UHGV virus genome: UHGV-0170778
Length of the DNA: 64,000 nt
Reading direction: 5' to 3' (one strand)
DNA from: a virus
Of this stretch, positions 110 through 38,211 are shown in pieces. A program made the translations under genes and the position numbers. Numbering within the stretch: the first letter of the stretch is position 1; every line of letters starts with the position of its first letter. The notes under the pieces are model-generated. The model had not been told where the DNA came from, searched no databases, and saw only the letters and a program-made list of their open reading frames with translations.

Positions 110-1222
110 ATGAAATTCACACTAAATACAAAACCATTGTCAGATAGCTTGAATTTAGGTGTAATCAACAGCAATGTGTCTAAGTTCTACCAAAAAAGTA
201 CACTTGCTCAAATTACAGCTACTAAAACTACATTTAGAGTAAACTTAGAAGCAGCTTCTATTTTATCCGAGATTCAATTGAAAGGGTCGGGTGACGAAGA
301 TACTGAATCTGTTGCATTTGTAGATTGCTTGGTTCTGAAACAGCTTATTTCTACTATCAATACAGCTACAGTAACTTTTGAATTTACAGATTCTGGTTTG
401 ATTGTATATTCTGGTAAATCTAAGTTCACACTTCCTGAAGTAGTTGATTCTGATCTTGGCATTGAACTTGATAGGCCGGTAGATGACAATGAAGTAGAAG
501 GTAAGATTGCACTAGATAAAAACATTTGGAAATTTGTTAAAGATTATCAGCTATATGCTATTTCAATGTCTTTGATTTATCCTGTATATACAAAAGTATA
601 TGTAGGGAAAGACGGAGAAGTACTTGTAGGCGATTTTGATAATAGTTTGTTTACATATTCAAACAAAAGCAACTTAGGTTCTACTTGTTTGCTTACAGAT
701 ACAATTATCAATCTATTTGATTCTGTACCGGACGGAACAAACATCTACAAATCAGGCAAAAGTTATTATATGTCAACTGAAAGTGATGCTTATTCATTCA
801 GTGCTAAGTTTACGCCTTCTTATGAAGATGATGAAGGTGTAGGTACTTACAACGCACCTATTATTTTAGGGCTTATGTCTTCTGAACAAGATGATACTCC
901 CGTAAGAATTAAAGTATCTGATATGAATAAAGTCCTGAATCAGGCAGCACTGCTTTCAACTAGCACTGAAGATAGCATTACATTGAAATTTGACGGTTCC
1001 AGTCTTCATGTTTATGACAATAATGTTGACGCAGTAATTGAAGGAAATGGTCAATCAATTCAATATTCAGTTCCTTTCAAAACTACTATTTTGAAATCTG
1101 TCATTTCAAATGCACCAGAAGATGATGTAGCTATTTATCCTTTGTATACTGATGGATCTATCAATGGTGTTCGTTTCCAGTTCAAGGAACTTACTGTTGT
1201 TCTTGCAGGTGTGGAGGAGTAA
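110..1222 (+). CDS. dnaN: DNA polymerase III beta-type sliding clamp (DnaN-like)
   Basis: 370 aa, the DnaN size. N-terminus MKFTL resembles E. coli DnaN MKFTV. Motif LIVYSGKSKFTLPEVV resembles E. coli DnaN MLVRSGRSRFSLSTLP. AGGAG RBS 7 nt upstream. Lies beside clamp-loader genes. Confidence 0.65.
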   Translation: MKFTLNTKPLSDSLNLGVINSNVSKFYQKSTLAQITATKTTFRVNLEAASILSEIQLKGSGDEDTESVAFVDCLVLKQLISTINTATVTFEFTDSGLIVYSGKSKFTLPEVVDSDLGIELDRPVDDNEVEGKIALDKNIWKFVKDYQLYAISMSLIYPVYTKVYVGKDGEVLVGDFDNSLFTYSNKSNLGSTCLLTDTIINLFDSVPDGTNIYKSGKSYYMSTESDAYSFSAKFTPSYEDDEGVGTYNAPIILGLMSSEQDDTPVRIKVSDMNKVLNQAALLSTSTEDSITLKFDGSSLHVYDNNVDAVIEGNGQSIQYSVPFKTTILKSVISNAPEDDVAIYPLYTDGSINGVRFQFKELTVVLAGVEE

Positions 1223-2005
1223 ATGTCATTCAAAGCAATCAATCCTGATGCTTTGACGAAGTTTAATTCTGCAATATCTTCAGAGTTTATAAAAATGTAT
1301 GAAGGCTTTGTTTTATCAGACATACAAACTGATAGGATGAAGCCTTCATCTAAATCATTTGCTCCGTCAAGTATTAGATGTATGAGAAAAAGTTGGTTTC
1401 GGTTGAGAGGTAAAGAACCAGATAAGCTGAAATCTGTTGATGCTACATTAGAATTCAAAGCTAAGTTAGGTACAGCTATTCACGAAAATATACAAAGTAC
1501 ACTTTCATCTAATCTAGCAGAGAACTGGGTAGATACAAAGGATTACTTAAATAGTATACAGAATGAATGTAGCTGGCTTAAACAAGCTAAATTTGATGCG
1601 CATGGATTTGAAACTCGAGTTGAACTTTTTGAAATTCCTATCAGATTTAGTGTAGACGGAATTTTGAAACTTCAAAATGAACTATATCTACTAGAAATAA
1701 AAACATTAGATTTTGGGGATTTCAATGGTCTCACAGATATAAAGCAAAGTCATATAGATCAGGTAAAAACATATTTAACTTTATTAAATCTAGAAAATGC
1801 AATCGTTATGTATGTTGACAGACAATATGGATCTGTTAAGTGTTACAGCTATAGCATAAAGCAGTATGAACGAGATGAAATATTCAACAATATGCATCAT
1901 GTACTCAATTGTGTTGAAAGTAATATTGCACCTGACAGATTAGATTATTCTGATTACATGTGTACAAATTGTCCGTACAAGAAAAGTTGTAAGGAGTGGG
2001 GCTAA
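1223..2005 (+). CDS. PD-(D/E)XK nuclease with Cas4/RecB-like Cys cluster
   Basis: 260 aa. LLEIKTL matches the (D/E)xK core. One N-terminal Cys (IRCMRKSW) plus C-terminal CTNCPYKKSC, the pattern seen in Cas4/AddB-type Fe-S nucleases. Stop overlaps the dnaX start (TAATG). Confidence 0.55.
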   Translation: MSFKAINPDALTKFNSAISSEFIKMYEGFVLSDIQTDRMKPSSKSFAPSSIRCMRKSWFRLRGKEPDKLKSVDATLEFKAKLGTAIHENIQSTLSSNLAENWVDTKDYLNSIQNECSWLKQAKFDAHGFETRVELFEIPIRFSVDGILKLQNELYLLEIKTLDFGDFNGLTDIKQSHIDQVKTYLTLLNLENAIVMYVDRQYGSVKCYSYSIKQYERDEIFNNMHHVLNCVESNIAPDRLDYSDYMCTNCPYKKSCKEWG

Positions 2006-4365
2006 TGTCAAATAAACTTTCTTCAAAATCTCTGGCAGTAAAATATAGACCTAAAACATTTGAAGATGTAGTGGAACAGAGTGTAGTTACAGACATACTT
2101 AAAAACATTGCTACAAATTCTGATAATCTTACTCTCCGTAATTTTCTTTTGATTGGGTCTGCTGGAACAGGAAAGACTACTTGTGCAAGAATACTTGCAA
2201 ATGAATTGAATCATGGTGAGGGAGAACCTATTGAAATTGACGCAGCTTCTAACAATGGCGTAGACGCAATGCGAGGTATTGTAGATCAAGCTAAAACTTA
2301 TCCAATTGTAGGTAAGTATAAAGTGTTCATAATTGATGAATGTTTCCATAAAAATACACTTGTTGATACACCATTAGGCAAACGAAGAATTTCTGATATC
2401 AAACAAAATGATTTAGTTTACAATATGACTGGGACTGCTAGTGTTTCAAAGGTTTTGAAAAATAAAGTAAAAACTGATAACCTTGTATTAGTCTATGTTA
2501 ATGGTTCATCTATTTTAACAACAAAGGATCATCTATTCTTTACAAGTGATGGGTGGGTCAAAGCAAAAGATTTAGTTAAAGGTGATGTATTGTATGATAA
2601 CAAAACAATGCGAAGTTTGCGGCAAAATGTTTCAGTCTTATCCAAGCGACAATCGCAAAGCTTGCAGCAAGGAATGTGGGGAAATTCTTCGAGCAAAAAA
2701 CCTACAGAAATTTCTTTCAGAGAGACCAAAAACAGGATATACAAAAAAGTGTCCGATCTGTGGGAAAGTCTTTTATACACCTCAGTCAGTGAATTCGATA
2801 ACTTGTTCAAGCAAATGTTCCTATATTTACAAAAAACAACAAGGAATTTCAAAGAAGCAGACAGATATGTATGCTTCGCACAGGCAGGAATTTATTTGTC
2901 CTGTTTGCGGGAAGCATATGAACATCCGGAAGAGCGATCATCGGAAATATTGTTCAGTAGAATGTTCGGTGAAATCTCATCATATAGCCGAATTGCACCC
3001 AGATACCCAACTGCCCGCGAAGTCTTGTGTGATATGTGGAAATATGTTTATTCCGAAATCAAAACAAACGCAGACTTGCTCAAAGAGCTGCAGATATATT
3101 CTGATTGCTTCCAAAACACGAGGAAAAAAGAATCCAGAAGCGTCTGCACGGATGAAAGCTCACAACCCGATGGAAAATCCCGAAACTTTTGCGAAGATGA
3201 AAGCAACCAAGATGAAGAATGGGACATGGTCAAAGCCTTGTGTGAAGCGTGGCGGAAATGGGCATTTTACCAAGCCGCAGATACATCTTCATCAAGCATT
3301 AGGGAATGGATGGGTCTTAGAATATCCAGTGAAAACACATGTTTCAAAGCAGAACGAGATGCACTATCCTACGAATTACAAACTAGACCTTGCATTGCCG
3401 GAAAAGAAGCTTGGAGTCGAGGTGGATGGGAAAGACCACAATACGAAATCTCAACAGTTATTAGATCAGAAGAAAGTAACTTGCTTGGAGAATTTAGGGT
3501 GGACTGTGTTGAGGTTTTCAAACGAGGAAATAATGAACAACATTTCGAGCGTTATTTCAGTAATTCAGAATTATGTTCAGAAACTGTAGATATGTATGAT
3601 TTACAGATAGCAGGACATCCATCTTATTTCGTTGAAGGCGTTCTGGTTCATAATTGTCATGCCCTTAGTAACAGTTCTTGGCAAGCGTTATTGAAAGTTT
3701 TAGAAGAAGCTCCAGCTGCAAGTGTGTTCATGTTAGCTACAACAAATCCTGAAAAAATACCAGAAACAATTTTATCAAGAGTAATGACATTTCAGTTGTC
3801 TAAGATAAGTTTGTCTGGTATCTTTAATCGACTGAAGTATGTTTTAGATAAAGAAATTGAATCTGGAAGAAATATAAAATATGAAGAAGATGCAGTAAAC
3901 TTCATCGCTAAATTAGGTAATGGAGGTATGCGAGACAGCCTTACATTGCTAGATACAGCACTTTCTTATAGCAACAATATAACAATGGAGAATGTAGAAA
4001 AAAGTCTTAATCTTCCTAATTACAATGACTATTTTTCATTGCTTCAATCTATTGCAAAGAAAGACAACAAATCAATTATTGAAACAATATCTTCTGTTTA
4101 TAATTCAGGAGTTAATTTTGTAAAATGGTTTGAAGGTTTTCATTCATTTGTAATTAACATTGTTAAGTACATTAACATCCAAGATATTAACATGACAATG
4201 ATTCCAAGTACTTACTTAGATAAAATTTCTAAATATGGCCCTGCTCATTGTACAATATGCTTAAAACTGTCTAATATTCTAGTTAAACTTATTCATGAAT
4301 TAAAGTCAACAAACTATCAACAAGAAATGGCTATAACTTACTTATGTTCTGCTAAGAAAGGATAA
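2005..4365 (+). CDS. dnaX: DnaX-like clamp loader ATPase (tau/gamma family), interrupted by an intein
   Basis: KYRPKTFEDVV box, Walker A GSAGTGKTT, Walker B KVFIIDE. After the intein it resumes with CHALSNSSWQALLKVLEE, SRC-like ILSRV and sensor-2 GGMRDSLTLLD. The track start at 1996 is GTG; ATG at 2005 follows AAGGAG. Confidence 0.8.
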   Translation: MSNKLSSKSLAVKYRPKTFEDVVEQSVVTDILKNIATNSDNLTLRNFLLIGSAGTGKTTCARILANELNHGEGEPIEIDAASNNGVDAMRGIVDQAKTYPIVGKYKVFIIDECFHKNTLVDTPLGKRRISDIKQNDLVYNMTGTASVSKVLKNKVKTDNLVLVYVNGSSILTTKDHLFFTSDGWVKAKDLVKGDVLYDNKTMRSLRQNVSVLSKRQSQSLQQGMWGNSSSKKPTEISFRETKNRIYKKVSDLWESLLYTSVSEFDNLFKQMFLYLQKTTRNFKEADRYVCFAQAGIYLSCLREAYEHPEERSSEILFSRMFGEISSYSRIAPRYPTAREVLCDMWKYVYSEIKTNADLLKELQIYSDCFQNTRKKESRSVCTDESSQPDGKSRNFCEDESNQDEEWDMVKALCEAWRKWAFYQAADTSSSSIREWMGLRISSENTCFKAERDALSYELQTRPCIAGKEAWSRGGWERPQYEISTVIRSEESNLLGEFRVDCVEVFKRGNNEQHFERYFSNSELCSETVDMYDLQIAGHPSYFVEGVLVHNCHALSNSSWQALLKVLEEAPAASVFMLATTNPEKIPETILSRVMTFQLSKISLSGIFNRLKYVLDKEIESGRNIKYEEDAVNFIAKLGNGGMRDSLTLLDTALSYSNNITMENVEKSLNLPNYNDYFSLLQSIAKKDNKSIIETISSVYNSGVNFVKWFEGFHSFVINIVKYINIQDINMTMIPSTYLDKISKYGPAHCTICLKLSNILVKLIHELKSTNYQQEMAITYLCSAKKG
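2341..3654 (+). other. Intein (438 codons) inserted after the Walker B DE of DnaX
   Basis: Begins Cys (CFHKNTLVDTPLG, block A) with a TxxH block B (TTKDH). Ends VDMYDLQIAGHPSYFVEGVLVHN followed by the +1 Cys (blocks F/G). Removing it restores IIDE|CHALS, the canonical DnaX DExx box. The middle ~330 codons carry no recognisable LAGLIDADG or HNH motif in frame. Confidence 0.75.
2594..3589 (+). CDS. Zn-ribbon / Vsr(DUF559)-like homing-endonuclease-like gene nested in the +1 frame inside the intein
   Basis: +1 frame relative to dnaX/intein. Four CxxCGK...CSxxC zinc-ribbon modules. C-terminal KLGVEVDGKDHN...ENLGWTVLRF is the Vsr/DUF559-type nuclease signature. Paralogous to ORFs 34242..35939(-) and 36652..38211(+). 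Start uncertain (GTG 2582, ATG 2585 or ATG 2594; AAGGTG upstream). Confidence 0.6.
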   Translation: MITKQCEVCGKMFQSYPSDNRKACSKECGEILRAKNLQKFLSERPKTGYTKKCPICGKVFYTPQSVNSITCSSKCSYIYKKQQGISKKQTDMYASHRQEFICPVCGKHMNIRKSDHRKYCSVECSVKSHHIAELHPDTQLPAKSCVICGNMFIPKSKQTQTCSKSCRYILIASKTRGKKNPEASARMKAHNPMENPETFAKMKATKMKNGTWSKPCVKRGGNGHFTKPQIHLHQALGNGWVLEYPVKTHVSKQNEMHYPTNYKLDLALPEKKLGVEVDGKDHNTKSQQLLDQKKVTCLENLGWTVLRFSNEEIMNNISSVISVIQNYVQKL

Positions 4366-4369
4366 TTAG

Positions 4370-4930
4370 ATGCGACCTATAAAGTCTATAATAGAATCTA
4401 ATAGAGAAGATATACAAACAGCAAGAGAATTTTGTGATGATTTATATGACAAACAATTTGCTCCTTATTTCAAAGATACGCACGATCTTTTTGTTAGATT
4501 CCAAACAGATAGTAAGCCAATAACAAATGATGAGCTGTCGTCTATATTGACAATATGTCCGTTGAATATGATCAATGTTTCATCAAATCTAAGCGATCTA
4601 CGAAGACAGATGGAACTCTTCAAATTGAAGAATAAAGATATTAAAAATAATCTTTCTGGAAGTGAAAGTCTTCAAGATCTAGATGATTCAAGTTTAATTA
4701 TTGAAAATTCACTTATGATTTGTTTGTTTGACTCTGTTATAAAAAGAGTAGAAGGAGAAATTTCATACACTCGTGAATTGATCATGAGTGCAAAGAAATT
4801 ATGGGATTCTAGAATGAAAGAAAACGAACCTTCTCCTATTTCTGAAGTAGATGATAAGTTACCGGATTATACTTATCCAACTTCTGCAAAATCTAATAAA
4901 GATAATAGATCTAAATATATAATGGGGTGA
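4370..4930 (+). CDS. hypothetical protein
   Basis: 186 aa ORF packed tightly between dnaX and the recA-like gene. No recognisable motif. Confidence 0.35.
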   Translation: MRPIKSIIESNREDIQTAREFCDDLYDKQFAPYFKDTHDLFVRFQTDSKPITNDELSSILTICPLNMINVSSNLSDLRRQMELFKLKNKDIKNNLSGSESLQDLDDSSLIIENSLMICLFDSVIKRVEGEISYTRELIMSAKKLWDSRMKENEPSPISEVDDKLPDYTYPTSAKSNKDNRSKYIMG

Positions 4931-6084
4931 TACAATTGTCTACATATGCTGAAATTATCAAGAAAAAGAAAAAAGAATGGAACTGCGAAGGGCTTATGGA
5001 TGGGCACAATGCAGATCGAGGTCAAAAACTTCCTTTCTCGTCTCCTCTTATGAATTGGGCTACTTATGGGGGTATTCCTCGTAATAAGATTACTGAATTC
5101 TTCGGAGATCCGGGAGGAGGGAAGACCTCGACGGCAGTTGATGTTTGTAAGAACTGTATTGAAATTTTCAACAAAGAATACTCAGATAAAGTTGACTCAT
5201 TGAGAGAGCAAATTGCATCAGGTAACAAATCAGCTGTTTCTGAATTAGCAGATCTTGAAGATTTTGGTCCTAAAAAAGTACTTTACATTGATCTAGAACA
5301 TTCATTTGACGCTGCATGGTCAAAAACATTAGGTATTGATGAATCTGATATAGATGTAATGCAACCTCCTGATACTACCGCAGAAGAAATTATGCAAACA
5401 ATTCTAGATATAATTGAAACTGGCGAAGTAGGTATGATTGTTCTAGATTCTATTCCTTCACTTGTACCTAAGATGGAGCTAGAGAAAAACATTGGAGAAC
5501 GGACAGTATCTGCTCTTGCCGGACCTTTATCTGTATTTTGCAGAAAAGTAGTTTCTTTACTAACTAGATATCAATGTACATTGTTAATGATAAACCAAGT
5601 CAGAGACAATATGGATAATCCATATGTAGTTAATACTCCTGGAGGTAAAGCCCCTAAATTTTACTCGTCTCTTAGAATTCAGTTTAGAATTGGAGCTCCT
5701 GTAGATTTCCTCGGCATAGAACAGCCACAGAAATTTGAATCTCCTGCTGGATATCTAATAAAAGCTCAAATTGTAAAACAGAAGAGTGCACCTTGGGATA
5801 GAAAACAGGCTACTTATTATCTAATGTGCAAATCTGGAATTCGTCCAGATTTTGATTATGCTAATCTTGCAATCAACAAGTATGGGATAATCTGTAAGAA
5901 AGCAGCTTGGTTCACATTCACAGATCCACAAACAGGTGAAGTGTTAGAAAATGAATCTGGTATGCCTGTCAAAGTAAACGGACTTGCTCGTGTTTATGAT
6001 TACTTGAAAGAACATCCTGATTATTATAACAAATTGAAAGAATATATTACAAATGACATAAATGGAGCATCATCCGATGAATGA
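4927..6084 (+). CDS. RecA/UvsX-family recombinase
   Basis: Walker A FGDPGGGKTSTAVDV. MINQVRDNMDNPYVVNTPGGKAPKFYSSLRIQFR resembles RecA NQIR...GG.ALKFYASVRL. Start may be TTG 4936 (GGGGTG SD) rather than GTG 4927. Confidence 0.75.
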   Translation: MIQLSTYAEIIKKKKKEWNCEGLMDGHNADRGQKLPFSSPLMNWATYGGIPRNKITEFFGDPGGGKTSTAVDVCKNCIEIFNKEYSDKVDSLREQIASGNKSAVSELADLEDFGPKKVLYIDLEHSFDAAWSKTLGIDESDIDVMQPPDTTAEEIMQTILDIIETGEVGMIVLDSIPSLVPKMELEKNIGERTVSALAGPLSVFCRKVVSLLTRYQCTLLMINQVRDNMDNPYVVNTPGGKAPKFYSSLRIQFRIGAPVDFLGIEQPQKFESPAGYLIKAQIVKQKSAPWDRKQATYYLMCKSGIRPDFDYANLAINKYGIICKKAAWFTFTDPQTGEVLENESGMPVKVNGLARVYDYLKEHPDYYNKLKEYITNDINGASSDE

Positions 6085-6583
6085 AGTGACAAAAGATAAA
6101 AGTTCAAAACAAGAAAAAGCTGTTGCTGAATATCTAGGCGGAAATGTTGTCGTTGGTAGCGGAGCAAGGCAATTTCACCCTGGAGATGTTCTTTACGGTA
6201 GATATTTAATTGAATGCAAAACTCATATGCAAGTTCAAGATACAATCGTTTTCAAAAGATGCTTTTGGGACAAGATAAAAGACGAAGCTACTTCGCAATT
6301 CAAAGTACCTATGCTTGTCACAGATAATGGTACACAAAAGATAAAAAATACTTTTTGTATACTCCCATATAATTTTATACATCCATATTTCCGAGATGAA
6401 CTTATCTATGAAGTTTCGTTAAACATGAATATCAGAACTAATCTTATATTTCAGTTCAATGATATGAAATTAGATCTTTGCAAAGATGACGGTTTTGCAT
6501 ATTGTTATAATTTAGACTGGGGATGCGATAAAGTTTCAGTTTTGCCTTTATGTGCATTCAAACAGATATTAGAGGATGATTGA
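6077..6583 (+). CDS. putative PD-(D/E)XK nuclease (Hjc/RecU-like Holliday-junction resolvase candidate)
   Basis: GDVLYGRYLIECKTH gives D..ExK spacing typical of small resolvase-type nucleases. Sits next to the recombinase. ATG 6077 has a GGAG SD; the track start is 6062. Confidence 0.3.
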   Translation: MNEVTKDKSSKQEKAVAEYLGGNVVVGSGARQFHPGDVLYGRYLIECKTHMQVQDTIVFKRCFWDKIKDEATSQFKVPMLVTDNGTQKIKNTFCILPYNFIHPYFRDELIYEVSLNMNIRTNLIFQFNDMKLDLCKDDGFAYCYNLDWGCDKVSVLPLCAFKQILEDD

Positions 6584-7488
6584 ATATGCTTTCAATTCAA
6601 CAAGTAGGAAAAGAAATATTAGGAGATAATCCAAGTAACTTCTATGTTTTCTTAGGCAGTGAATATGGAATAAAGAAAAAGTATGTAGATCATCTATCTT
6701 TGTATTATGATGAAGTTATAGAGTTGGAGTATGTAGACGATGTTTTCAATCTTTTTAAGCAGAAGCATCTATTTGCTCCAAAACCAACACTGTATATTGT
6801 AAGATACGATAACAATTTTATTAAATCTATCAACAATAAAACAGAAGAATATATCAAGTCTTTGAAAATTGCTGGTACTATAGTTTGTATATATGAAGGT
6901 GATTCTATTGCTTCTAAGTGTAATAAGTATATTCCTGATATGTCTGTTTCTTTTGATAATATATCTGATGAATTATGTTTCAAATATTTGAAAAACGATT
7001 TCAAAGCGTTGAACGACACCGTGTTGAAATATATAGCAAAAAATTCACATGGATACTATCAAGCTAATATTATGTGTAATTCAATTGCTAATATATCCAA
7101 AGAAACTACATTACAGGACATTAAATATACATTTGATATAAACAATGAAACAACAGATGAAGAATTTAGACATAGTTTTATGAAAAAAGACTATGCTAAG
7201 TTAATAGATATGTTAGAAAGATACGAAGATTTAACTAATATTTATTATCTTATGCTCAATTCTTTGTTAGACATTGAAAAACAGCTAACATCTAGATACA
7301 AAAAAGCAAATGATTCAAATATATGGAATCTACAAGATGTTTACAACATGTTCATGAATGTATATCATGAGATAAAGAAAACAAGAAAAATTTCTTCATA
7401 TTCTATCAAATATAGTTTAGAGTATTTATTCAGCTTGCTTAATTATCAACAAATACCGTCTGTAGGTGATTTAGAATGGAATTTATAA
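6580..7488 (+). CDS. hypothetical protein; possible clamp-loader delta-like subunit
   Basis: 302 aa, immediately upstream of and overlapping an AAA+ clamp-loader subunit. Assignment rests on position only. Confidence 0.25.
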   Translation: MNMLSIQQVGKEILGDNPSNFYVFLGSEYGIKKKYVDHLSLYYDEVIELEYVDDVFNLFKQKHLFAPKPTLYIVRYDNNFIKSINNKTEEYIKSLKIAGTIVCIYEGDSIASKCNKYIPDMSVSFDNISDELCFKYLKNDFKALNDTVLKYIAKNSHGYYQANIMCNSIANISKETTLQDIKYTFDINNETTDEEFRHSFMKKDYAKLIDMLERYEDLTNIYYLMLNSLLDIEKQLTSRYKKANDSNIWNLQDVYNMFMNVYHEIKKTRKISSYSIKYSLEYLFSLLNYQQIPSVGDLEWNL

Positions 7489-34241: not shown

Positions 34242-35939
34242 TTATTTTACATATGCATAAACAGCTTGACCACAATCATAAACAGGTAACCATCCGTGAT
34301 CAATCATCAATTCTTCATTTGAGGTTCCTTTTCCGTAATCTGTGTTGAAAAGTTGATCGTATCCTCGTTGACGTAAGAGATTTGCAGTTATTTTATTATT
34401 CTCCAACGACCATATTTCTTGAGGAGGTGTATTCTTAACAAAATGCATACCTAATTTGCTATAAACAGATCCGTCAAATTTAGATAAATCACAATAGGAA
34501 ATTATATTGTTCAGATGATAATGAGAGACGGCGTATTTGAAGAGTTTTGAAGCCCCGCCAGTAATTTTATATCTACTGTTTGAGCAAAGTCGAAGAAGTT
34601 CATATTGATAGTTTCTATTATATCTAGAATTACCAAAAGTCATCACTTCAACAAGTTCTCCTTTATACATCAATCCTACTCGAATATTCTGTCCTTTACA
34701 TGTATTCTGGATATGATACTTACATAAGAATTCGTCGCATTCTTTCTTACCTATCTCTACAATTTTGCAGTTACGGGCATATATAACTTCTTTCTTTGTC
34801 AATAGCTGGATGACTTTGTCCCAGTTATCCCAATCAAAGATATGAATACATCTGAATCCGTTTTCTTTAGCAATATTAGTCTTCTCTAAATGGTAACCTT
34901 TATCTACAGTAACATTCCAATGGTTTCCAACAATGTTGTGAGTATAAGTAGGATCAATTTCTATTAGAATGTTAGTGTCAAGTATGTGTAAGTCGTAAAA
35001 TTTTCCACTTAGATAAAATTCTAACTCTCCGTTTTCATTTGCTGCTTTTACAGCATCTAAAAATTTCAAATTTGTTTTAGATATCCTGTTTTTTCTGCAC
35101 TGAGCGTCATTTGTCAAGCAGCCATAAGGAACTCCGTATTTCTTCATACATGTTTCTTGTATTTTCATTTGAATTGTTTCAGATTTTGAAGGGTTATCTA
35201 CTCCTAAGTGTTCGATCCAAGTCTGCTTTGCTTTTTCGTCTATTTCGTCAGGCCAAAAAGACCCATAGTTCGCTATTCTATGTTCCATAGCTATTTTATT
35301 TATTGATTCCACCTGCATTGGATTTTCTTTTCCATATCGTTCCATCATTGTTTGTTTTGCTTTTTCTGTAAATTGATCTATTTTAGATGGATTAGCTTTG
35401 CCATACTTTGCCTCCATAGTTGCTTTGTATTTATCATATAACTGTTTACTCTGTAAAGTAGTAGGAGCACCGTATCGTTCAGTCATAGTTTTCATTGATT
35501 TTTTCTTTATTTCTGGATCGCTCAATGCCCAGTCAACACCAAATTTCTTCTGGTTAGATGCTTTTGCTTTTTCATAAAATTGATCTGATTGCAAAGCAAA
35601 TTCAACACCATACTTATCTTTCATAGATTTTCTGTGATGAGCTTGAACTTCTTTGTTTTGCATAGGATGATCTACACCATATTTTTCTCTACATCTCATC
35701 TTTCGTAATTGAGCTTTACATTCTTTGGAACACGGAGGAGGCTGTTGTCTTGAATTCCATATCATTTGTTTACCACAAACAGGGCAAGGAACATAATGAT
35801 CGTCATTACATATTTTAGTAGAACTTCTTTCTGGCATAAATATTTTGCCACATATAACACATTTCTTCGGACTCTTTGGAACACCTTTAGGCATATAATA
35901 AATCTCACTTTCAATATTATTATTAAATATAAGGTACAT
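34242..35939 (-). CDS. Zn-ribbon / Vsr-like homing-endonuclease-like protein with extra C-terminal domain
   Basis: The only convincing minus-strand gene in the window. N-terminal CVICGK...CPVCGK zinc ribbons and repeated KYG(V)..P.Q modules. Nuclease core ILIEIDPTYTHN...GFRCIHIFDWD. A ~190-aa C-terminal domain (ARNCKIVEI...YHIQNTCKGQ...LLRLCS) is shared with ORF 36652. Confidence 0.55.
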   Translation of the reverse strand: MYLIFNNNIESEIYYMPKGVPKSPKKCVICGKIFMPERSSTKICNDDHYVPCPVCGKQMIWNSRQQPPPCSKECKAQLRKMRCREKYGVDHPMQNKEVQAHHRKSMKDKYGVEFALQSDQFYEKAKASNQKKFGVDWALSDPEIKKKSMKTMTERYGAPTTLQSKQLYDKYKATMEAKYGKANPSKIDQFTEKAKQTMMERYGKENPMQVESINKIAMEHRIANYGSFWPDEIDEKAKQTWIEHLGVDNPSKSETIQMKIQETCMKKYGVPYGCLTNDAQCRKNRISKTNLKFLDAVKAANENGELEFYLSGKFYDLHILDTNILIEIDPTYTHNIVGNHWNVTVDKGYHLEKTNIAKENGFRCIHIFDWDNWDKVIQLLTKKEVIYARNCKIVEIGKKECDEFLCKYHIQNTCKGQNIRVGLMYKGELVEVMTFGNSRYNRNYQYELLRLCSNSRYKITGGASKLFKYAVSHYHLNNIISYCDLSKFDGSVYSKLGMHFVKNTPPQEIWSLENNKITANLLRQRGYDQLFNTDYGKGTSNEELMIDHGWLPVYDCGQAVYAYVK

Positions 35940-36022: not shown

Positions 36023-36568
36023 ATGTTTACACCATTAGCAATGGGAACAAATCACATGTTAGGCGTAGATTCTTATGTCCCCCTAACAACAAACAACTTT
36101 GAAATTCGAGTGTATAACATGGATGGAAGTGTACCAACAGAATTCTCAGAATTGTTAACATTGAGCACTGATGAAATTGGAGCTATCCAGGAAGAAGAAG
36201 ATCAGATCGTTGTACATTATGGAAATGGTCTAATCAAATTCCCGAGTAAAGTATCTTTCAACGATGTAGACTGGACATTGAATTGCTATTGCTCTCCTAA
36301 TGTTTATGAAAATCTTCGTGCTTGGAGAAAAATGGTTTATGATCCTGATACAGAGAGAATGGGTCTTCCTACGGAGTATATGAAGCAAGTCTATTTCATT
36401 AGATATGATGGCCAAGGAAATTGCAGAGATGTAATTAAGTGTCCAGGCTGCTGGCCAGGAGCTCTCAATAATGGTTCCATGAACCAGACTGGTGGTGAAC
36501 TAGTTAAAGTAAGTTTGCCGCTAGTTATTTCCAGAGTCATCTACTTGAAACCTGAAGATTTTCAGTAA
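36023..36568 (+). CDS. tail tube protein (T4 gp19-like)
   Basis: 181 aa. FEIRVYNMDG, SFNDVDWTLNCY and IKCPGCWPG...ELVKVSLPLVISRVIY parallel gp19 FQVEISYLGQ, FDDWTVTVMN and IKGLWPTN...EVTLALDY. Confidence 0.6.
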   Translation: MFTPLAMGTNHMLGVDSYVPLTTNNFEIRVYNMDGSVPTEFSELLTLSTDEIGAIQEEEDQIVVHYGNGLIKFPSKVSFNDVDWTLNCYCSPNVYENLRAWRKMVYDPDTERMGLPTEYMKQVYFIRYDGQGNCRDVIKCPGCWPGALNNGSMNQTGGELVKVSLPLVISRVIYLKPEDFQ

Positions 36569-36651: not shown

Positions 36652-38211
36652 ATGATCAAAAAATGTAAGATATGCGGAAAAGAGTTTGAAGCATATGGTA
36701 CTTCTGAATATTGCCCAGGCCCTCACTATAAAAAATGTGCTGTTTGTGGTAAAGAGTTTGAATGGGATAGATTGCATCCTAAGAAATGTTGTTCGAGGAA
36801 ATGTGCAGCAGCTCTTCGACTTTCTACTATATCATCAGAAACAAGAATATGCGAACTTTGTGGGAAAGAATTTCATCCTAATAATAGTACGCAAAAATAC
36901 TGTAAAGATGATCATTACAGACCTTGTCCTGTGTGTGGGAAACCAATTAAAATAACTGAAGACACAAGCATTACTTCTTGTTGTTCTGTTGAATGTAGTA
37001 ATGAGCTTAGAAAGAGGACATGTATTGATAAATATGGAGTTCCTATTGTATCTCAGAATGACGAAATACGACAGAAATTGAGTCAAGCTTCAATAGAATC
37101 AGAAAATAAGAGAAAAGAAACATGTATCAAACGATATGGAGTTGAATTCGCTTCTAAATATTCTGAGGTTAGAAGAAAAATATCGAATACAGTTAAAAGC
37201 AAAGAATGTCAAAGTAGAATTAGAAATACGACACAACACAAGTATGGAGTTCCGTTCGTAATGCAATGCGAAGAAGGATTATCTAGATATAGAAAAACAA
37301 TAGAATCTAAATATGGAGTTCCATATTTTTGTATGACAGATAAATGCAAAGACTCGCAAGGGAAAGTAATTTCGACTCTAAATAAAAGTTTTGGAAACTT
37401 ATTGAGTCAAAATAACATACCATATACATTTGAATACAAGATAGAGAATAGATCGTATGATATTTGCGTCCCTGGATCAAAAACACTGATCGAAATTGAT
37501 CCTACATATACTCATAATGTTATTGGAAATTGTTGGGGACCTGGCTTAGAGATCAATTATCATATAGAGAAGACAAAATTAGCAAATGAATATGGATTCA
37601 GGTGTATTCATATTTGGGATTGGGATGATTGGGATAAGATAATAAATATCATCAGGCCAAAATCCGTCATATATGCTAGAAAATGTAAAATAAGTGTGAT
37701 TGATCGAAAAACAGCAGAATCTTTTGAAATTGATAATCATTTACAAGGCGCTGTAAAAGGACAATCTATTTGCTTAGGTCTATTTTATTGCAATGATCTA
37801 GTACAGGTCATGACTTTCGGTAAACCTAGGTACAATAAAAACTACGATTGGGAACTGCTTAGACTCTGTTCCATTTCTGATTATGCAGTTGTAGGCGGAG
37901 CAGAGAAGCTATGGAAATATTTCATAAGTAGACATGTATCAGATTCAGTTATTTCTTATTGTGATTTGTCTAAATTCAAAGGAGATGTTTACACGAGATT
38001 AGGTATGTCCTTAGACTTTGTAAACGAACCCAATAAAATATGGTCTAAGAAATCTGAAATGATAACCAATAACTTACTCCTTCAACGAGGGTACGATCAA
38101 TTATTCAATACAAATTATGGAAAGGGGACCTCAAACGAAGAATTGATGCTGGAACACGGATGGTTGCCGGTTTATGATTGTGGTCAAGCAAGATATACAT
38201 GGAGTAATTGA
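36652..38211 (+). CDS. Zn-ribbon / Vsr-like homing-endonuclease-like protein with extra C-terminal domain (paralog of 34242..35939)
   Basis: CKICGK, CAVCGK, CELCGK, CPVCGK ribbons. RYGVEFASKYSEVRRK-type repeats. LIEIDPTYTHN...GFRCIHIWDWDDWDKI nuclease core. C-terminal domain collinear with the minus-strand paralog. Confidence 0.55.
   Translation: MIKKCKICGKEFEAYGTSEYCPGPHYKKCAVCGKEFEWDRLHPKKCCSRKCAAALRLSTISSETRICELCGKEFHPNNSTQKYCKDDHYRPCPVCGKPIKITEDTSITSCCSVECSNELRKRTCIDKYGVPIVSQNDEIRQKLSQASIESENKRKETCIKRYGVEFASKYSEVRRKISNTVKSKECQSRIRNTTQHKYGVPFVMQCEEGLSRYRKTIESKYGVPYFCMTDKCKDSQGKVISTLNKSFGNLLSQNNIPYTFEYKIENRSYDICVPGSKTLIEIDPTYTHNVIGNCWGPGLEINYHIEKTKLANEYGFRCIHIWDWDDWDKIINIIRPKSVIYARKCKISVIDRKTAESFEIDNHLQGAVKGQSICLGLFYCNDLVQVMTFGKPRYNKNYDWELLRLCSISDYAVVGGAEKLWKYFISRHVSDSVISYCDLSKFKGDVYTRLGMSLDFVNEPNKIWSKKSEMITNNLLLQRGYDQLFNTNYGKGTSNEELMLEHGWLPVYDCGQARYTWSN

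What the first reader, a model, noticed from the sequence alone, without database searches (positions are those of the whole stretch)
2341..3654. Intein in DnaX with a complete homing-endonuclease-like gene nested in the +1 frame
The intein has canonical Hint blocks (C1...TTKDH...VDMYDLQIAGHPSYF...VHN|C) and splits the Walker B DE of DnaX. Its central ~330 in-frame codons show no LAGLIDADG or HNH motif. The +1 frame of the same DNA (about 2594..3589) instead encodes a four-zinc-ribbon plus Vsr/DUF559-type (LGVEVDG..H...GW.VLRF) endonuclease, with its own AAGGTG SD. The intein frame stays stop-free across roughly 1 kb of AT-rich DNA. That is extremely unlikely without selection, so both frames appear to be maintained as dual coding. 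The arrangement suggests a mini-intein invaded by a free-standing homing endonuclease gene of the family found at 34242 and 36652, or an intein that outsourced its endonuclease.
Basis: partly seen in the sequence, partly recalled or inferred. Interest (0 to 1): 0.85.

Follow-up and report, generated by a model that had tools for sequence, protein, structure and literature searches.

The report
Intein with overprinted homing endonuclease gene
A self-splicing intein in a phage clamp-loader (DnaX-like) gene carries a working-looking Vsr-type homing endonuclease gene in the +1 reading frame, and the same arrangement turns up in about 200 other phage and prophage ATPase genes, so it is a real and conserved design, although the general idea has recently been described for other inteins.

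Summary
The DnaX-like gene (2005..4365) contains a class-1 intein (2341..3654) placed right after the Walker B Asp-Glu. A 331-codon gene (ATG 2594, stop 3587..3589, SD AAGGTG 2579..2584) lies in the +1 frame. It encodes four zinc ribbons plus a Vsr/DUF559 (EDxHD-type) nuclease.

The host frame has 0 stops across the overlap, against 19.4±2.9 expected after synonymous permutation. The third frame has 26.

This is not a one-off. In 164 of 165 viral and metagenomic loci with related endonuclease genes, and in 38 bacterial genome or MAG loci, the gene sits in the same +1 frame inside a DE|CF…HN|C intein. The hosts are DnaX-like, DEAD/DEAH and SNF2-like ATPases. One is the cultured Vibrio phage CP-T1, where the nested gene is unannotated.

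Selection is asymmetric. The endonuclease frame is under purifying selection. The host-frame middle is only kept stop-free: it is no more conserved than a non-coding frame, has low AlphaFold confidence and has no homologs.

Out-of-frame endonucleases in inteins were reported in 2025–2026 preprints and in 1998. I rate this a new variant of a known kind.

The parts
2005..4365 (+). DnaX-like clamp-loader ATPase precursor gene. The likely start is ATG 2005, with SD AAGGAG at 1991-1996, overlapping the upstream stop in TAATG. The ORF listing reports the ORF from GTG 1996.
   Evidence: Pfam DNA_pol3_delta2 1.3e-14, DNAX_ATPase_lid 8.4e-10, AAA 3.9e-9.
2005..2340 (+). N-extein, with P-loop GSAGTGKT and Walker B ..KVFIIDE.
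   Evidence: Translation. Intein-free relatives read FIIDE[C/V/A/S]H continuously.
2341..3654 (+). Class-1 intein, 438 aa (Cys1 … His-Asn), in the host frame.
   Evidence: Pfam Intein_splicing 5.5e-11, PT-HINT 1.3e-7. The junctions DE|CF and HN|C are shared with about 100 related loci.
2341..2616 (+). N-terminal Hint lobe (intein aa 1 to about 92; blocks A and B, TTKDH).
   Evidence: AlphaFold pLDDT 92-97 for aa 1-90. Foldseek best match is the gp41-1 intein 6qaz, E=1.4e-6, 32% identity.
2617..3480 (+). Host-frame translated spacer (intein aa about 93-380). It is stop-free but not conserved as protein, and the model has low confidence.
   Evidence: No Pfam or PDB hit. pLDDT is mostly below 50 for aa 98-364. 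Host-frame identity equals that of a non-coding frame. 13 synonymous/57 non-synonymous codon changes vs L086.
3481..3654 (+). C-terminal Hint lobe (intein aa about 381-438). It includes strand RVDCVEVF (3496..3519) and blocks F/G, VDMYDLQIAGHPSYFVEGVLVHN.
   Evidence: pLDDT 85-95. No nucleotide differences from L086 over 3587..3654.
2573..2575 (+). TAG stop in the endonuclease (+1) frame, 21 nt upstream of its ATG. It delimits a separate cistron.
   Evidence: The family median distance is 18 nt.
2579..2584 (+). Shine-Dalgarno-like AAGGTG for the nested gene. In the host frame it encodes part of ..VKGD...
   Evidence: Sequence. Many relatives have strong SD motifs such as AAGGAGG.
2594..3589 (+). 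Nested homing-endonuclease gene in the +1 frame (331 aa plus TAG stop).
2609..3094 (+). Four CxxC…C…C zinc-ribbon modules of the endonuclease (Cys 6/9/25/29, 53/56/72/76, 103/106/121/125, 145/148/162/166). This is the presumed DNA-binding region.
   Evidence: Translation. Pfam DUF2116/NinG. PHROG 1271. C145/C148/C162/C166 are nearly invariant in the family.
3365..3586 (+). Vsr-like/EDxHD catalytic core of the endonuclease (aa 258-331; YKLDLA…LGVEVDGKDH…D..K…LGWTVLRF).
3496..3589 (+). Stretch where two confidently modelled segments overlap: the endonuclease C-terminus (LGWTVLRFSNEE…QKL*) and the first strand and loop of the C-terminal Hint lobe.
   Evidence: In the family, host-frame RVDxVE[IV] is encoded by the same bases as LGWTVLRF.
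3655..4365 (+). C-extein (CHALSNSSWQALLKVLEE…), starting with the +1 Cys.
   Evidence: Six differences from L086, all synonymous.

Best explanation
This is a mobile intein in which splicing and homing are encoded by two overlapping cistrons on the same strand.

Translation of the DnaX-like mRNA in the host frame gives a precursor. Its intein consists of an N-terminal Hint lobe (about 92 aa), a roughly 290-aa sequence-unconstrained spacer, and a C-terminal Hint lobe (about 58 aa). The two lobes fold together and excise the whole 438-aa insert, joining ..IIDE to CHALS.. to restore the Walker B region.

Separately, ribosomes start at SD AAGGTG/ATG 2594 in the +1 frame. They make a free-standing 331-aa enzyme with four zinc ribbons and a Vsr-like/EDxHD nuclease. 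This enzyme presumably cuts intein-less alleles near the Walker B codons and drives copying of the whole element.

Because DnaX is presumably essential, any stop in the host frame is lethal. The endonuclease gene therefore never uses a T-ending codon before a codon that starts with AA, AG or GA. This constraint can be met by synonymous choice alone, which may explain why the +1 arrangement is the one seen.

Shown: the anatomy, the selection on both frames, the conservation of the architecture and its patchy distribution. Inferred: splicing, internal initiation, nuclease activity and the target site.
For: Anatomy and domain matches.

Stop avoidance:
- 0 observed against 19.4±2.9 expected in the window.
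- Across 144 distinct family members, 0 of 10,930 codons that precede an AA/AG/GA-starting codon end in T, against 25.8% in other contexts.
- The free-standing zinc-ribbon endonuclease-like genes in this window have 62 and 66 stops in that frame.
- Ordinary chromosomal DUF559 genes are mostly interrupted there, with 1-6 stops in about 80 codons.

Conserved architecture:
- 164 of 165 viral and metagenomic loci.
- 38 genome or MAG loci.
- Hand-checked cases: L001, L002, L016 and Vibrio phage CP-T1 gp10.
- The nested gene is always +1 relative to the host, with DE|CF and HN|C or SN|C junctions.

Asymmetric selection.

A separate cistron: there is a stop 21 nt upstream in the endonuclease frame (family median 18 nt), plus an SD.

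Mobility:
- At least 17 related DnaX genes lack the intein.
- One (L186) has a 199-aa endonuclease-less mini-intein at the same site.
- Five carry the full element.
Against: There is no experimental evidence for splicing, for internal initiation or for nuclease activity or specificity.

SD detection across the family was crude: 76 of 144 with a naive start choice.

No RNA structure regulating the internal start was detected (z=+1.06).

The loci were sampled by similarity to this endonuclease (the best 80 per scan). '164 of 165' therefore describes this clade, not all Vsr-like endonucleases. One relative (L039) is free-standing. A few copies look interrupted while the host frame stays open (L083, L198, L229, L235).

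In the last 33 endonuclease codons, the host frame is no more conserved than the non-coding frame. Constraint on both frames in that stretch therefore rests on the structure models alone.
Confidence: 0.85

Rival explanations
1. The endonuclease domain is really in-frame with the intein, either through a sequencing or assembly artefact or through programmed ribosomal frameshifting. A single Hint-endonuclease-Hint polypeptide would then be made, as in canonical inteins.
For: Canonical inteins carry their endonuclease in frame at exactly this position between the Hint lobes. The nested ORF starts and ends within a few codons of the lobe boundaries.
Against: Two compensating indels would leave the host frame between them unselected, with about 19-34 stops expected. 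It has none here and none in about 200 independent assemblies, including finished cultured-phage genomes. The endonuclease frame has a stop 21 nt upstream of its ATG (family median 18 nt) and its own SD. It also ends with a stop inside Hint block F, so returning to the host frame would need a second shift. No slippery motif is evident in 2573-2594.
Confidence: 0.03
2. The host-frame middle region is itself a functional protein domain, for example a regulator of splicing or a partner of the endonuclease. This would be true two-protein dual coding.
For: The host frame is translated by necessity. AlphaFold draws long helices in it.
Against: The middle has no Pfam or PDB similarity and low pLDDT. 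Its amino-acid identity between relatives equals that of the stop-laden third frame: 22.8% against 22.7% over 2317 pairs. Changes against the nearest relative are 13 synonymous and 57 non-synonymous. Spacer length varies widely, with inteins of 265-481 aa. A mini-intein at the same site lacks the region.
Confidence: 0.05
3. The nested ORF is a decaying remnant of an endonuclease gene that once invaded. It is no longer expressed, and the element persists only by vertical descent.
For: Some family members appear interrupted while the host frame stays open (L083, L198, L229, L235). Homing cycles predict such decay.
Against: The window copy is intact with all family-invariant catalytic residues. 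The endonuclease frame shows purifying selection: 54 of 81 differences from L086 fall at its third codon positions. The element is patchily distributed among close DnaX relatives.
Confidence: 0.07

Closest known systems
Cyanobacterial dnaX intein with an out-of-frame LAGLIDADG homing endonuclease (Phillips, DeSimone & Gogarten, bioRxiv 10.64898/2026.09.14.751524; idea traced there to Gorbalenya 1998)
   Same: It is an intein in a DnaX clamp-loader gene. The in-frame middle is low-confidence or disordered. An overlapping same-strand ORF with an SD encodes the endonuclease. Purifying selection acts in the endonuclease frame with relaxed constraint in the host frame. Intein-free and mini-intein alleles coexist.
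   Different: That endonuclease is LAGLIDADG in a '+2 ORF', in bacterial chromosomes. Here it is a zinc-ribbon plus Vsr-like/EDxHD enzyme in the +1 frame, in phages. The Hint domain is closest to gp41-1 rather than to the cyanobacterial DnaX mini-intein (7cfv ranks 21st). I did not establish whether the insertion site is the same.
Non-canonical actinobacteriophage inteins (Gosselin, Arsenault & Gogarten, bioRxiv 10.1101/2025.01.02.630785)
   Same: These are inteins whose endonuclease is encoded outside the intein frame. The in-frame region has no recognisable fold. The proposed origin is invasion of an intein by a free-standing endonuclease gene. Automatic annotation misses them.
   Different: There the VSR-like endonuclease is on the antisense strand, and the same-strand out-of-frame case is endonuclease VII-like in frame 3. 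The hosts are DNA polymerase, minor capsid, terminase and thymidylate synthase. Here a Vsr-like gene lies on the same strand in the +1 frame, in Walker B sites of DnaX-like and SF2/SNF2 ATPases.
'Fractured genes': split inteins with a free-standing Vsr-like or GIY-YIG endonuclease gene between the halves (Dassa et al. 2009, PMC2677866)
   Same: The endonuclease family is the same (Vsr-like). The Hint lineage is related: the best structural match is the gp41-1 intein, 32% identity. The endonuclease gene sits between the N and C Hint parts on the same strand, and its 3' end overlaps the C-terminal intein part (6-69 bp in 15 of their loci). These elements occur mainly in phages.
   Different: In fractured genes the host frame terminates after the N-intein, 27-51 nt of non-coding DNA follows, and the C part restarts with its own Met, so splicing is in trans. 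Here the host frame runs uninterrupted through the endonuclease gene, so splicing is in cis. That paper stated that Vsr-like domains were not known in inteins.
I-Bth0305I / EDxHD homing endonuclease family (Taylor et al. 2011, PMC3239194; PDB 3r3p)
   Different: I-Bth0305I is encoded in a group I intron of a phage recA gene, not in an intein. The N-terminal DNA-binding regions were not compared.

Membership tests
Class 1 intein (Hint/Intein_splicing) | N-terminal Cys/Ser nucleophile, block B TxxH, C-terminal His-Asn and a +1 Cys/Ser/Thr | tested here: met
   Cys1 (2341), TTKDH, VHN (3646-3654) and +1 Cys (3655). C1, H64, H437 and N438 are invariant across 30 homologs.
Class 1 intein (Hint/Intein_splicing) | Hint fold recognisable by profile and by structure | tested here: met
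   Pfam Intein_splicing 5.5e-11, above the gathering score. The model's two lobes have pLDDT above 90 and match the gp41-1, DnaB and RecA inteins.
Class 1 intein (Hint/Intein_splicing) | In-frame insertion that restores a conserved host motif on removal | tested here: met
   Removal gives FIIDE-CHALS. Intein-free relatives read FIIDECHSLS, FIIDEVHALS and similar.
Class 1 intein (Hint/Intein_splicing) | Protein splicing activity | not testable with these tools
   This needs expression of the precursor.
Vsr-like / EDxHD (DUF559) homing endonucleases | Vsr-type nuclease fold with conserved acidic and His catalytic residues | tested here: met
Vsr-like / EDxHD (DUF559) homing endonucleases | Association with a self-splicing element and patchy distribution among homologous host genes | tested here: met
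   The gene is nested in an intein. The element is present in 5, replaced by a mini-intein in 1, and absent in at least 17 related DnaX genes.
Vsr-like / EDxHD (DUF559) homing endonucleases | Site-specific cleavage of the empty allele | not testable with these tools
   No biochemical data are available.
Inteins with an out-of-frame (overprinted) endonuclease gene | The host frame is open across the endonuclease ORF beyond chance, and the endonuclease is in another frame with its own start and stop | tested here: met
Inteins with an out-of-frame (overprinted) endonuclease gene | Purifying selection in the endonuclease frame and relaxed selection in the host frame over the overlap | tested here: met
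Fractured gene / split intein (Dassa 2009) | The host gene is broken into two ORFs, with a stop after the N-intein and a new start for the C-intein | tested here: not met
   The host frame is continuous from 2005 to 4365, and likewise in 164 of 165 related loci.
Endonuclease family of the genes at 34242..35939(-) and 36652..38211(+) | Shared catalytic or core domains (DUF7487, PHROG 3339/559) | tested here: not met
   The nested gene has DUF559 and matches neither DUF7487 nor PHROG 3339. Only the zinc-ribbon N-terminus (PHROG 1271; 31% over 122 aa, E=6e-6) is shared.

The most novel reading that the evidence does not exclude
The window exemplifies a large clade of Walker-B-site inteins that has not been described as such. 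They occur in DnaX-like clamp loaders, in DEAD/DEAH and SNF2-like helicases and in giant ATPase ORFs, in phages and prophages of many bacterial phyla. In this clade a Vsr-like/EDxHD endonuclease gene is always overprinted in the +1 frame. The arrangement would be a long-lived, stable solution kept up by a simple synonymous-codon rule, not a transient intermediate. It would also be the cis-splicing counterpart, and plausibly the ancestor, of the 'fractured gene' gp41-1-type split inteins, because one host-frame stop plus a restart codon would convert one into the other.
Probability: 0.55. Interest if true: 0.7.

Novelty: new variant of a known kind. Interest (0 to 1): 0.62.

Why it matters
Where endonuclease-containing inteins come from is still argued. 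The 'splicing first, endonuclease invades later' model predicts intermediate forms. This clade adds a well-populated third state next to canonical in-frame inteins and fractured or split ones. Its Hint domain is closest to gp41-1, and its endonuclease family is the one found in fractured genes.

It is also a clean natural example of overprinting in which one frame must only stay open. That requirement leaves an absolute codon signature: no T-ending codon before AA, AG or GA in 10,930 contexts. The signature could be used to find more such elements.

On the practical side, these genes are mis-annotated. CP-T1 gp10 is listed as 'putative helicase' with the nested gene uncalled. Gene callers also tend to report either the endonuclease or a truncated host.

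The inteins tolerate about 300 aa of arbitrary insert. The endonucleases combine modular zinc-ribbon arrays with a compact nuclease. Both properties may interest protein engineers.

Tried and rejected
- **Megablast against GenBank phages:** the DnaX locus had no match, so there is no close cultured relative. The RecA-like neighbour is at most 37% identical to Clostridium and Streptococcus phage proteins.
- **First viral-contig scan with the single endonuclease sequence:** it found nothing. An alignment-based scan was needed.
- **In-frame endonuclease in the host-frame middle:** I looked with Pfam at E≤10 and with PDB sequences at E≤10. Nothing matched.
- **RNA hairpin sequestering the internal SD/ATG,** as reported for some free-standing endonuclease genes: the fold is not better than shuffles (z=+1.06).
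- **Extra host-frame constraint in the last 33 endonuclease codons,** where the C-terminal Hint lobe begins: host-frame identity (36.6%) did not exceed the non-coding frame (37.5%). I do not claim sequence-level double constraint there.
- **Chance or general codon bias of DUF559 genes as the reason for the open frame:** rejected using in-window genes and 41 chromosomal DUF559 genes as controls.
- **SD statistics across the family:** these used a naive 'first ATG' rule and are only indicative.
- **Host classification by C-extein motifs:** this is approximate. Pfam confirmed only six representative hosts.
Full report
**1. What is in the window**

A continuous ORF runs from 1996 (GTG), or more likely from ATG 2005, to 4365. 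ATG 2005 is preceded by AAGGAG at 1991-1996 and overlaps the upstream stop in TAATG. The product matches DNA_pol3_delta2 (1.3e-14), the DnaX ATPase lid (8.4e-10) and AAA (3.9e-9), so it is a DnaX-like clamp-loader ATPase.

An insert of 438 codons lies between ..KVFIIDE and CHALS... It starts with Cys (TGT 2341), contains TTKDH, and ends VDMYDLQIAGHPSYFVEGVLVHN (to 3654). Cys 3655 follows. Pfam Intein_splicing matches at 5.5e-11. The alignment jumps from the N-terminal to the C-terminal part without using any profile columns in between. The intein therefore sits immediately after the Walker B Asp-Glu, not inside it.

The 330 middle codons in the host frame match nothing in Pfam at E≤10 apart from one 0.28 chance-level hit. 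They match nothing among PDB sequences.

**2. The nested gene**

In the +1 frame an ORF runs from 2582 (GTG) or 2594 (ATG) to the TAG at 3587-3589. ATG 2594 is the probable start for two reasons. AAGGTG at 2579-2584 lies 9 nt upstream. The N-terminus MITKQCEVCGK also resembles that of other zinc-ribbon endonuclease genes. A TAG at 2573 closes this frame 21 nt upstream of the ATG.

The 331-aa product has three parts:
- Four CxxC…C…C ribbons (Pfam DUF2116/NinG-type; PHROG 1271).
- A helical NPM…RGGNG region.
- A C-terminal DUF559 domain (3.3e-13).

**3. Is the open host frame more than chance?**

Over the 337 overlapping codons the host frame has 0 stops, the nested frame has only its own stop, and the third frame has 26. 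Ordinary genes of this window carry 0.108 stops per codon in the equivalent frame.

I kept the nested protein fixed and permuted its own synonymous codons. The host frame then gets 19.4±2.9 stops, and never fewer than 8 in 20,000 trials. Drawing codons from the genome's usage gives 34±4. The reciprocal test, keeping the host translation, predicts 7.0±1.8 stops in the nested frame against 0 observed.

The two free-standing zinc-ribbon endonuclease-like genes in the window have 62 and 66 stops in the corresponding frame.

**4. It is a conserved architecture, not a local accident**

The closest protein relatives of the nested gene, P0001 (50% identity) and P0002 (36%), lie on contigs L001 and L002. 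In both, a DnaX-like ORF with DE|CF…HN|C junctions reads straight through the endonuclease gene, which is again +1.

I aligned 25 relatives (A1) and scanned two collections. This gave 80 viral loci and 80 metagenomic loci, which makes 165 loci together with the five encoding contigs L001-L005.
- In 164 of the 165 the frame one base upstream of the endonuclease frame has no stop across the gene and extends far on both sides. The other same-strand frame has 1-38 stops, at least 3 in all but the interrupted copy L083.
- The host-frame translation just after the endonuclease stop is an intein C-terminus in nearly all of them. Among distinct junctions the counts are HN|C 94, SN|C 30 and HN|S 8.
- The N-junction is DE|CF in 99.

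Hosts are roughly one third each DnaX-like, DEAD/DEAH (ResIII) helicases and SNF2-like helicases, by a motif-based count. They include ORFs longer than 8 kb. Pfam confirmed the host type and the Intein_splicing domain for the four representative hosts tested.

A scan of bacterial and archaeal genomes added 38 nested cases. These include isolates such as Azospirillum canadense DS2, Longilinea arvoryzae KOME-1 and Roseicella sp. The same scan returned 41 ordinary chromosomal DUF559 genes that are not nested; most carry 1-6 stops in that frame within about 80 codons. They serve as a negative control.

GenBank phages also carry the arrangement. There are 37 Vibrio phages (CP-T1, phage 24, Rostov M3 and the Nahant collection), two Corynebacterium phages and one Pseudomonas phage. 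In CP-T1 the 993-aa gp10 'putative helicase' contains the intein. A 249-aa +1-frame endonuclease gene inside it is not annotated.

**5. The codon rule**

With the endonuclease at +1, a host-frame stop needs an endonuclease codon ending in T followed by a codon beginning AA, AG or GA. Every amino acid has a codon that does not end in T, so the host frame can be kept open by synonymous choice alone. This follows from the genetic code.

Across 144 distinct family members, 0 of 10,930 codons in that context end in T. In other contexts 25.8% of 26,675 do. Synonymous permutation predicts 11.5 stops per gene on average, over a GC range of 28-68%.

**6. Which frame is conserved as protein?**

L086 comes from a near-identical phage and aligns without gaps. 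Flanking genes differ by 0.8-5.4%, almost only at third codon positions.

Within 2594-3586 there are 81 differences:
- 54 fall on endonuclease codon position 3, which is host position 1.
- In the endonuclease frame this is 45 synonymous and 27 non-synonymous codon changes.
- In the host frame it is 13 synonymous and 57 non-synonymous.
- Protein identity is 92% in the endonuclease frame and 83% in the host frame.
- None of the changes makes a host-frame stop.

Over 2317 pairs of family members, mean identity in the spacer part is 44.8% in the endonuclease frame. It is 22.8% in the host frame and 22.7% in the stop-laden third frame. The host-frame spacer is therefore translated, but its sequence is not under selection beyond staying open.

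AlphaFold agrees. The intein model has pLDDT 92-97 for aa 1-90 and 85-95 for aa about 380-438. It is mostly below 50 for aa 98-364. The structured lobes match mini-inteins, best of all gp41-1 (6qaz, E=1.4e-6, 32% identity).

The strand RVDCVEVF (aa 386-393, nt 3496-3519) is modelled confidently as part of the C-terminal lobe. It is encoded by the same bases as the endonuclease motif LGWTVLRF. About 94 nt (3496-3589) thus encode two structured segments. However, host-frame conservation there did not exceed the non-coding control.

**7. Mobility**

A scan with the spliced extein found 31 related DnaX loci at 37-71% identity.
- At least 17 lack any intein at Walker B (FIIDE[C/V/A/S]H).
- L186 has a 199-aa mini-intein at the same site with the same N-terminus (CFHKNTLV..) and no endonuclease ORF.
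- L187-L191 carry the full nested element.
- One relative of the endonuclease (L039) is free-standing, just upstream of a helicase gene.

**8. Mechanism**

The best-supported reading is a two-cistron mobile intein. The host frame yields a cis-splicing precursor with a long arbitrary linker between the Hint lobes. Internal initiation yields a separate Vsr-like endonuclease that targets empty Walker-B sites.

I considered three rivals and rate all of them unlikely for the reasons in the rival section:
- an artefact or frameshift fusion;
- a functional host-frame domain;
- a dead remnant.

Splicing, internal initiation, cleavage and target site remain inferences.

**9. Relation to the literature**

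Dassa et al. 2009 (PMC2677866) described Vsr-like endonuclease genes between the halves of split inteins ('fractured genes'). In those loci the host frame ends and restarts. The authors noted that Vsr-like domains were not known in inteins.

Gosselin et al. (bioRxiv 10.1101/2025.01.02.630785) reported actinophage inteins with antisense VSR-like, antisense LAGLIDADG and same-strand frame-3 endonuclease-VII-like genes. They proposed invasion by free-standing endonuclease genes.

Phillips et al. (bioRxiv 10.64898/2026.09.14.751524) showed that the cyanobacterial dnaX intein encodes a LAGLIDADG enzyme in a '+2 ORF'. They found the same asymmetric selection and a disordered in-frame region, and they remarked that few broadly distributed examples are documented.

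Full-text searches found no report of a same-strand +1 Vsr-like gene inside contiguous inteins, nor of this Walker-B clade. The library does not hold most subscription-journal papers.

I therefore rate the kind as known and this case as a new variant: a different nuclease family and frame, different hosts, and a much wider distribution.

**10.

The intein, the nested endonuclease and the selected open frame are right. 'Dual coding' needs the asymmetry qualifier. The proposed kinship with the genes at 34242 and 36652 is limited to zinc-ribbon modules. The union of intein and endonuclease is ancient rather than a local event.

Noticed in passing
L086 about 780..2017, the stretch with no counterpart in the window; window site about 2170..2178 (GGAAAGACT, P-loop GKT): The nearest relative of this phage (flanking DNA 95.6-96.7% identical) has a second, canonical LAGLIDADG intein in the same DnaX gene. 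It is inserted in the P-loop (GTGK|AQPL…THN|TTCARIL) and has LLGALIGDG and LLQGLFDTDG motifs. The window lacks it. L183-L187 carry related P-loop inteins. This is a presence/absence polymorphism between near-identical genomes.
   Followed up: partly
window 34242..35939 (-) and 36652..38211 (+): These are two large free-standing endonuclease-like genes of 565 and 519 aa. Each has zinc-ribbon N-termini, DUF7487 repeats and a PHROG 3339/559 'homing endonuclease' C-terminal region with an IEIDPTYTHN motif. They flank a 181-aa gene (36023..36568). They share only the zinc-ribbon modules with the nested gene.
   Followed up: partly
L166 (Vibrio phage CP-T1, JQ177061.1) host 1537..4518, nested 2420..3169: In this cultured phage, gp10 is annotated simply as 'putative helicase'. 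It contains a DE|CFPAGT…VVVHN|CHH intein with an unannotated 249-aa +1-frame Vsr-like gene. It would be a tractable experimental model for the whole class.
   Followed up: partly
L186 3187..3783: A 199-aa mini-intein sits at the same DnaX Walker-B site, with the same N-terminus (CFHKNTLVNT) and C-terminus (VDMYDLEIDGYPSYYVDGVMVHN). It has no endonuclease ORF, and both other frames are full of stops. It is either the pre-invasion state or a product of endonuclease loss.
   Followed up: partly
L039 4001..4633: This was the only relative among 165 loci that is not nested. It is a free-standing 210-aa Vsr-like gene whose 3' end overlaps the start of a helicase gene (4617..5768) that has no intein.
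   Followed up: partly
L083 about 4001..4609; L198 about 3501..4277; L229; L235: The endonuclease frame appears interrupted: the stop-free stretch is only 45-336 nt although the tblastn match is longer. The host frame remains open. These are possibly decaying endonuclease genes inside inteins that still splice.
   Followed up: no
L028, L075, L113, L130, L131 (whole loci, 8.6-9.0 kb): The host reading frames are open across the entire fetched locus, more than 2,800 codons. These are giant ATPase/helicase-type proteins that carry the same nested element (C-extein motifs such as HN|SYKNL.., SN|CYKNLYFHTKM..). The identity of these giant proteins was not determined.
   Followed up: no
window 2005 and neighbourhood 110..7488: The intein-bearing gene lies in a replication and recombination module. 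It includes a 370-aa ORF at 110..1222, a 260-aa ORF at 1223..2005 with a Cys-rich C-terminus, and a RecA/UvsX-like gene at 4927..6084 (at most 37% identical to Clostridium and Streptococcus phage proteins). The phage has no close cultured relative. Related contigs are 120-170 kb.
   Followed up: partly
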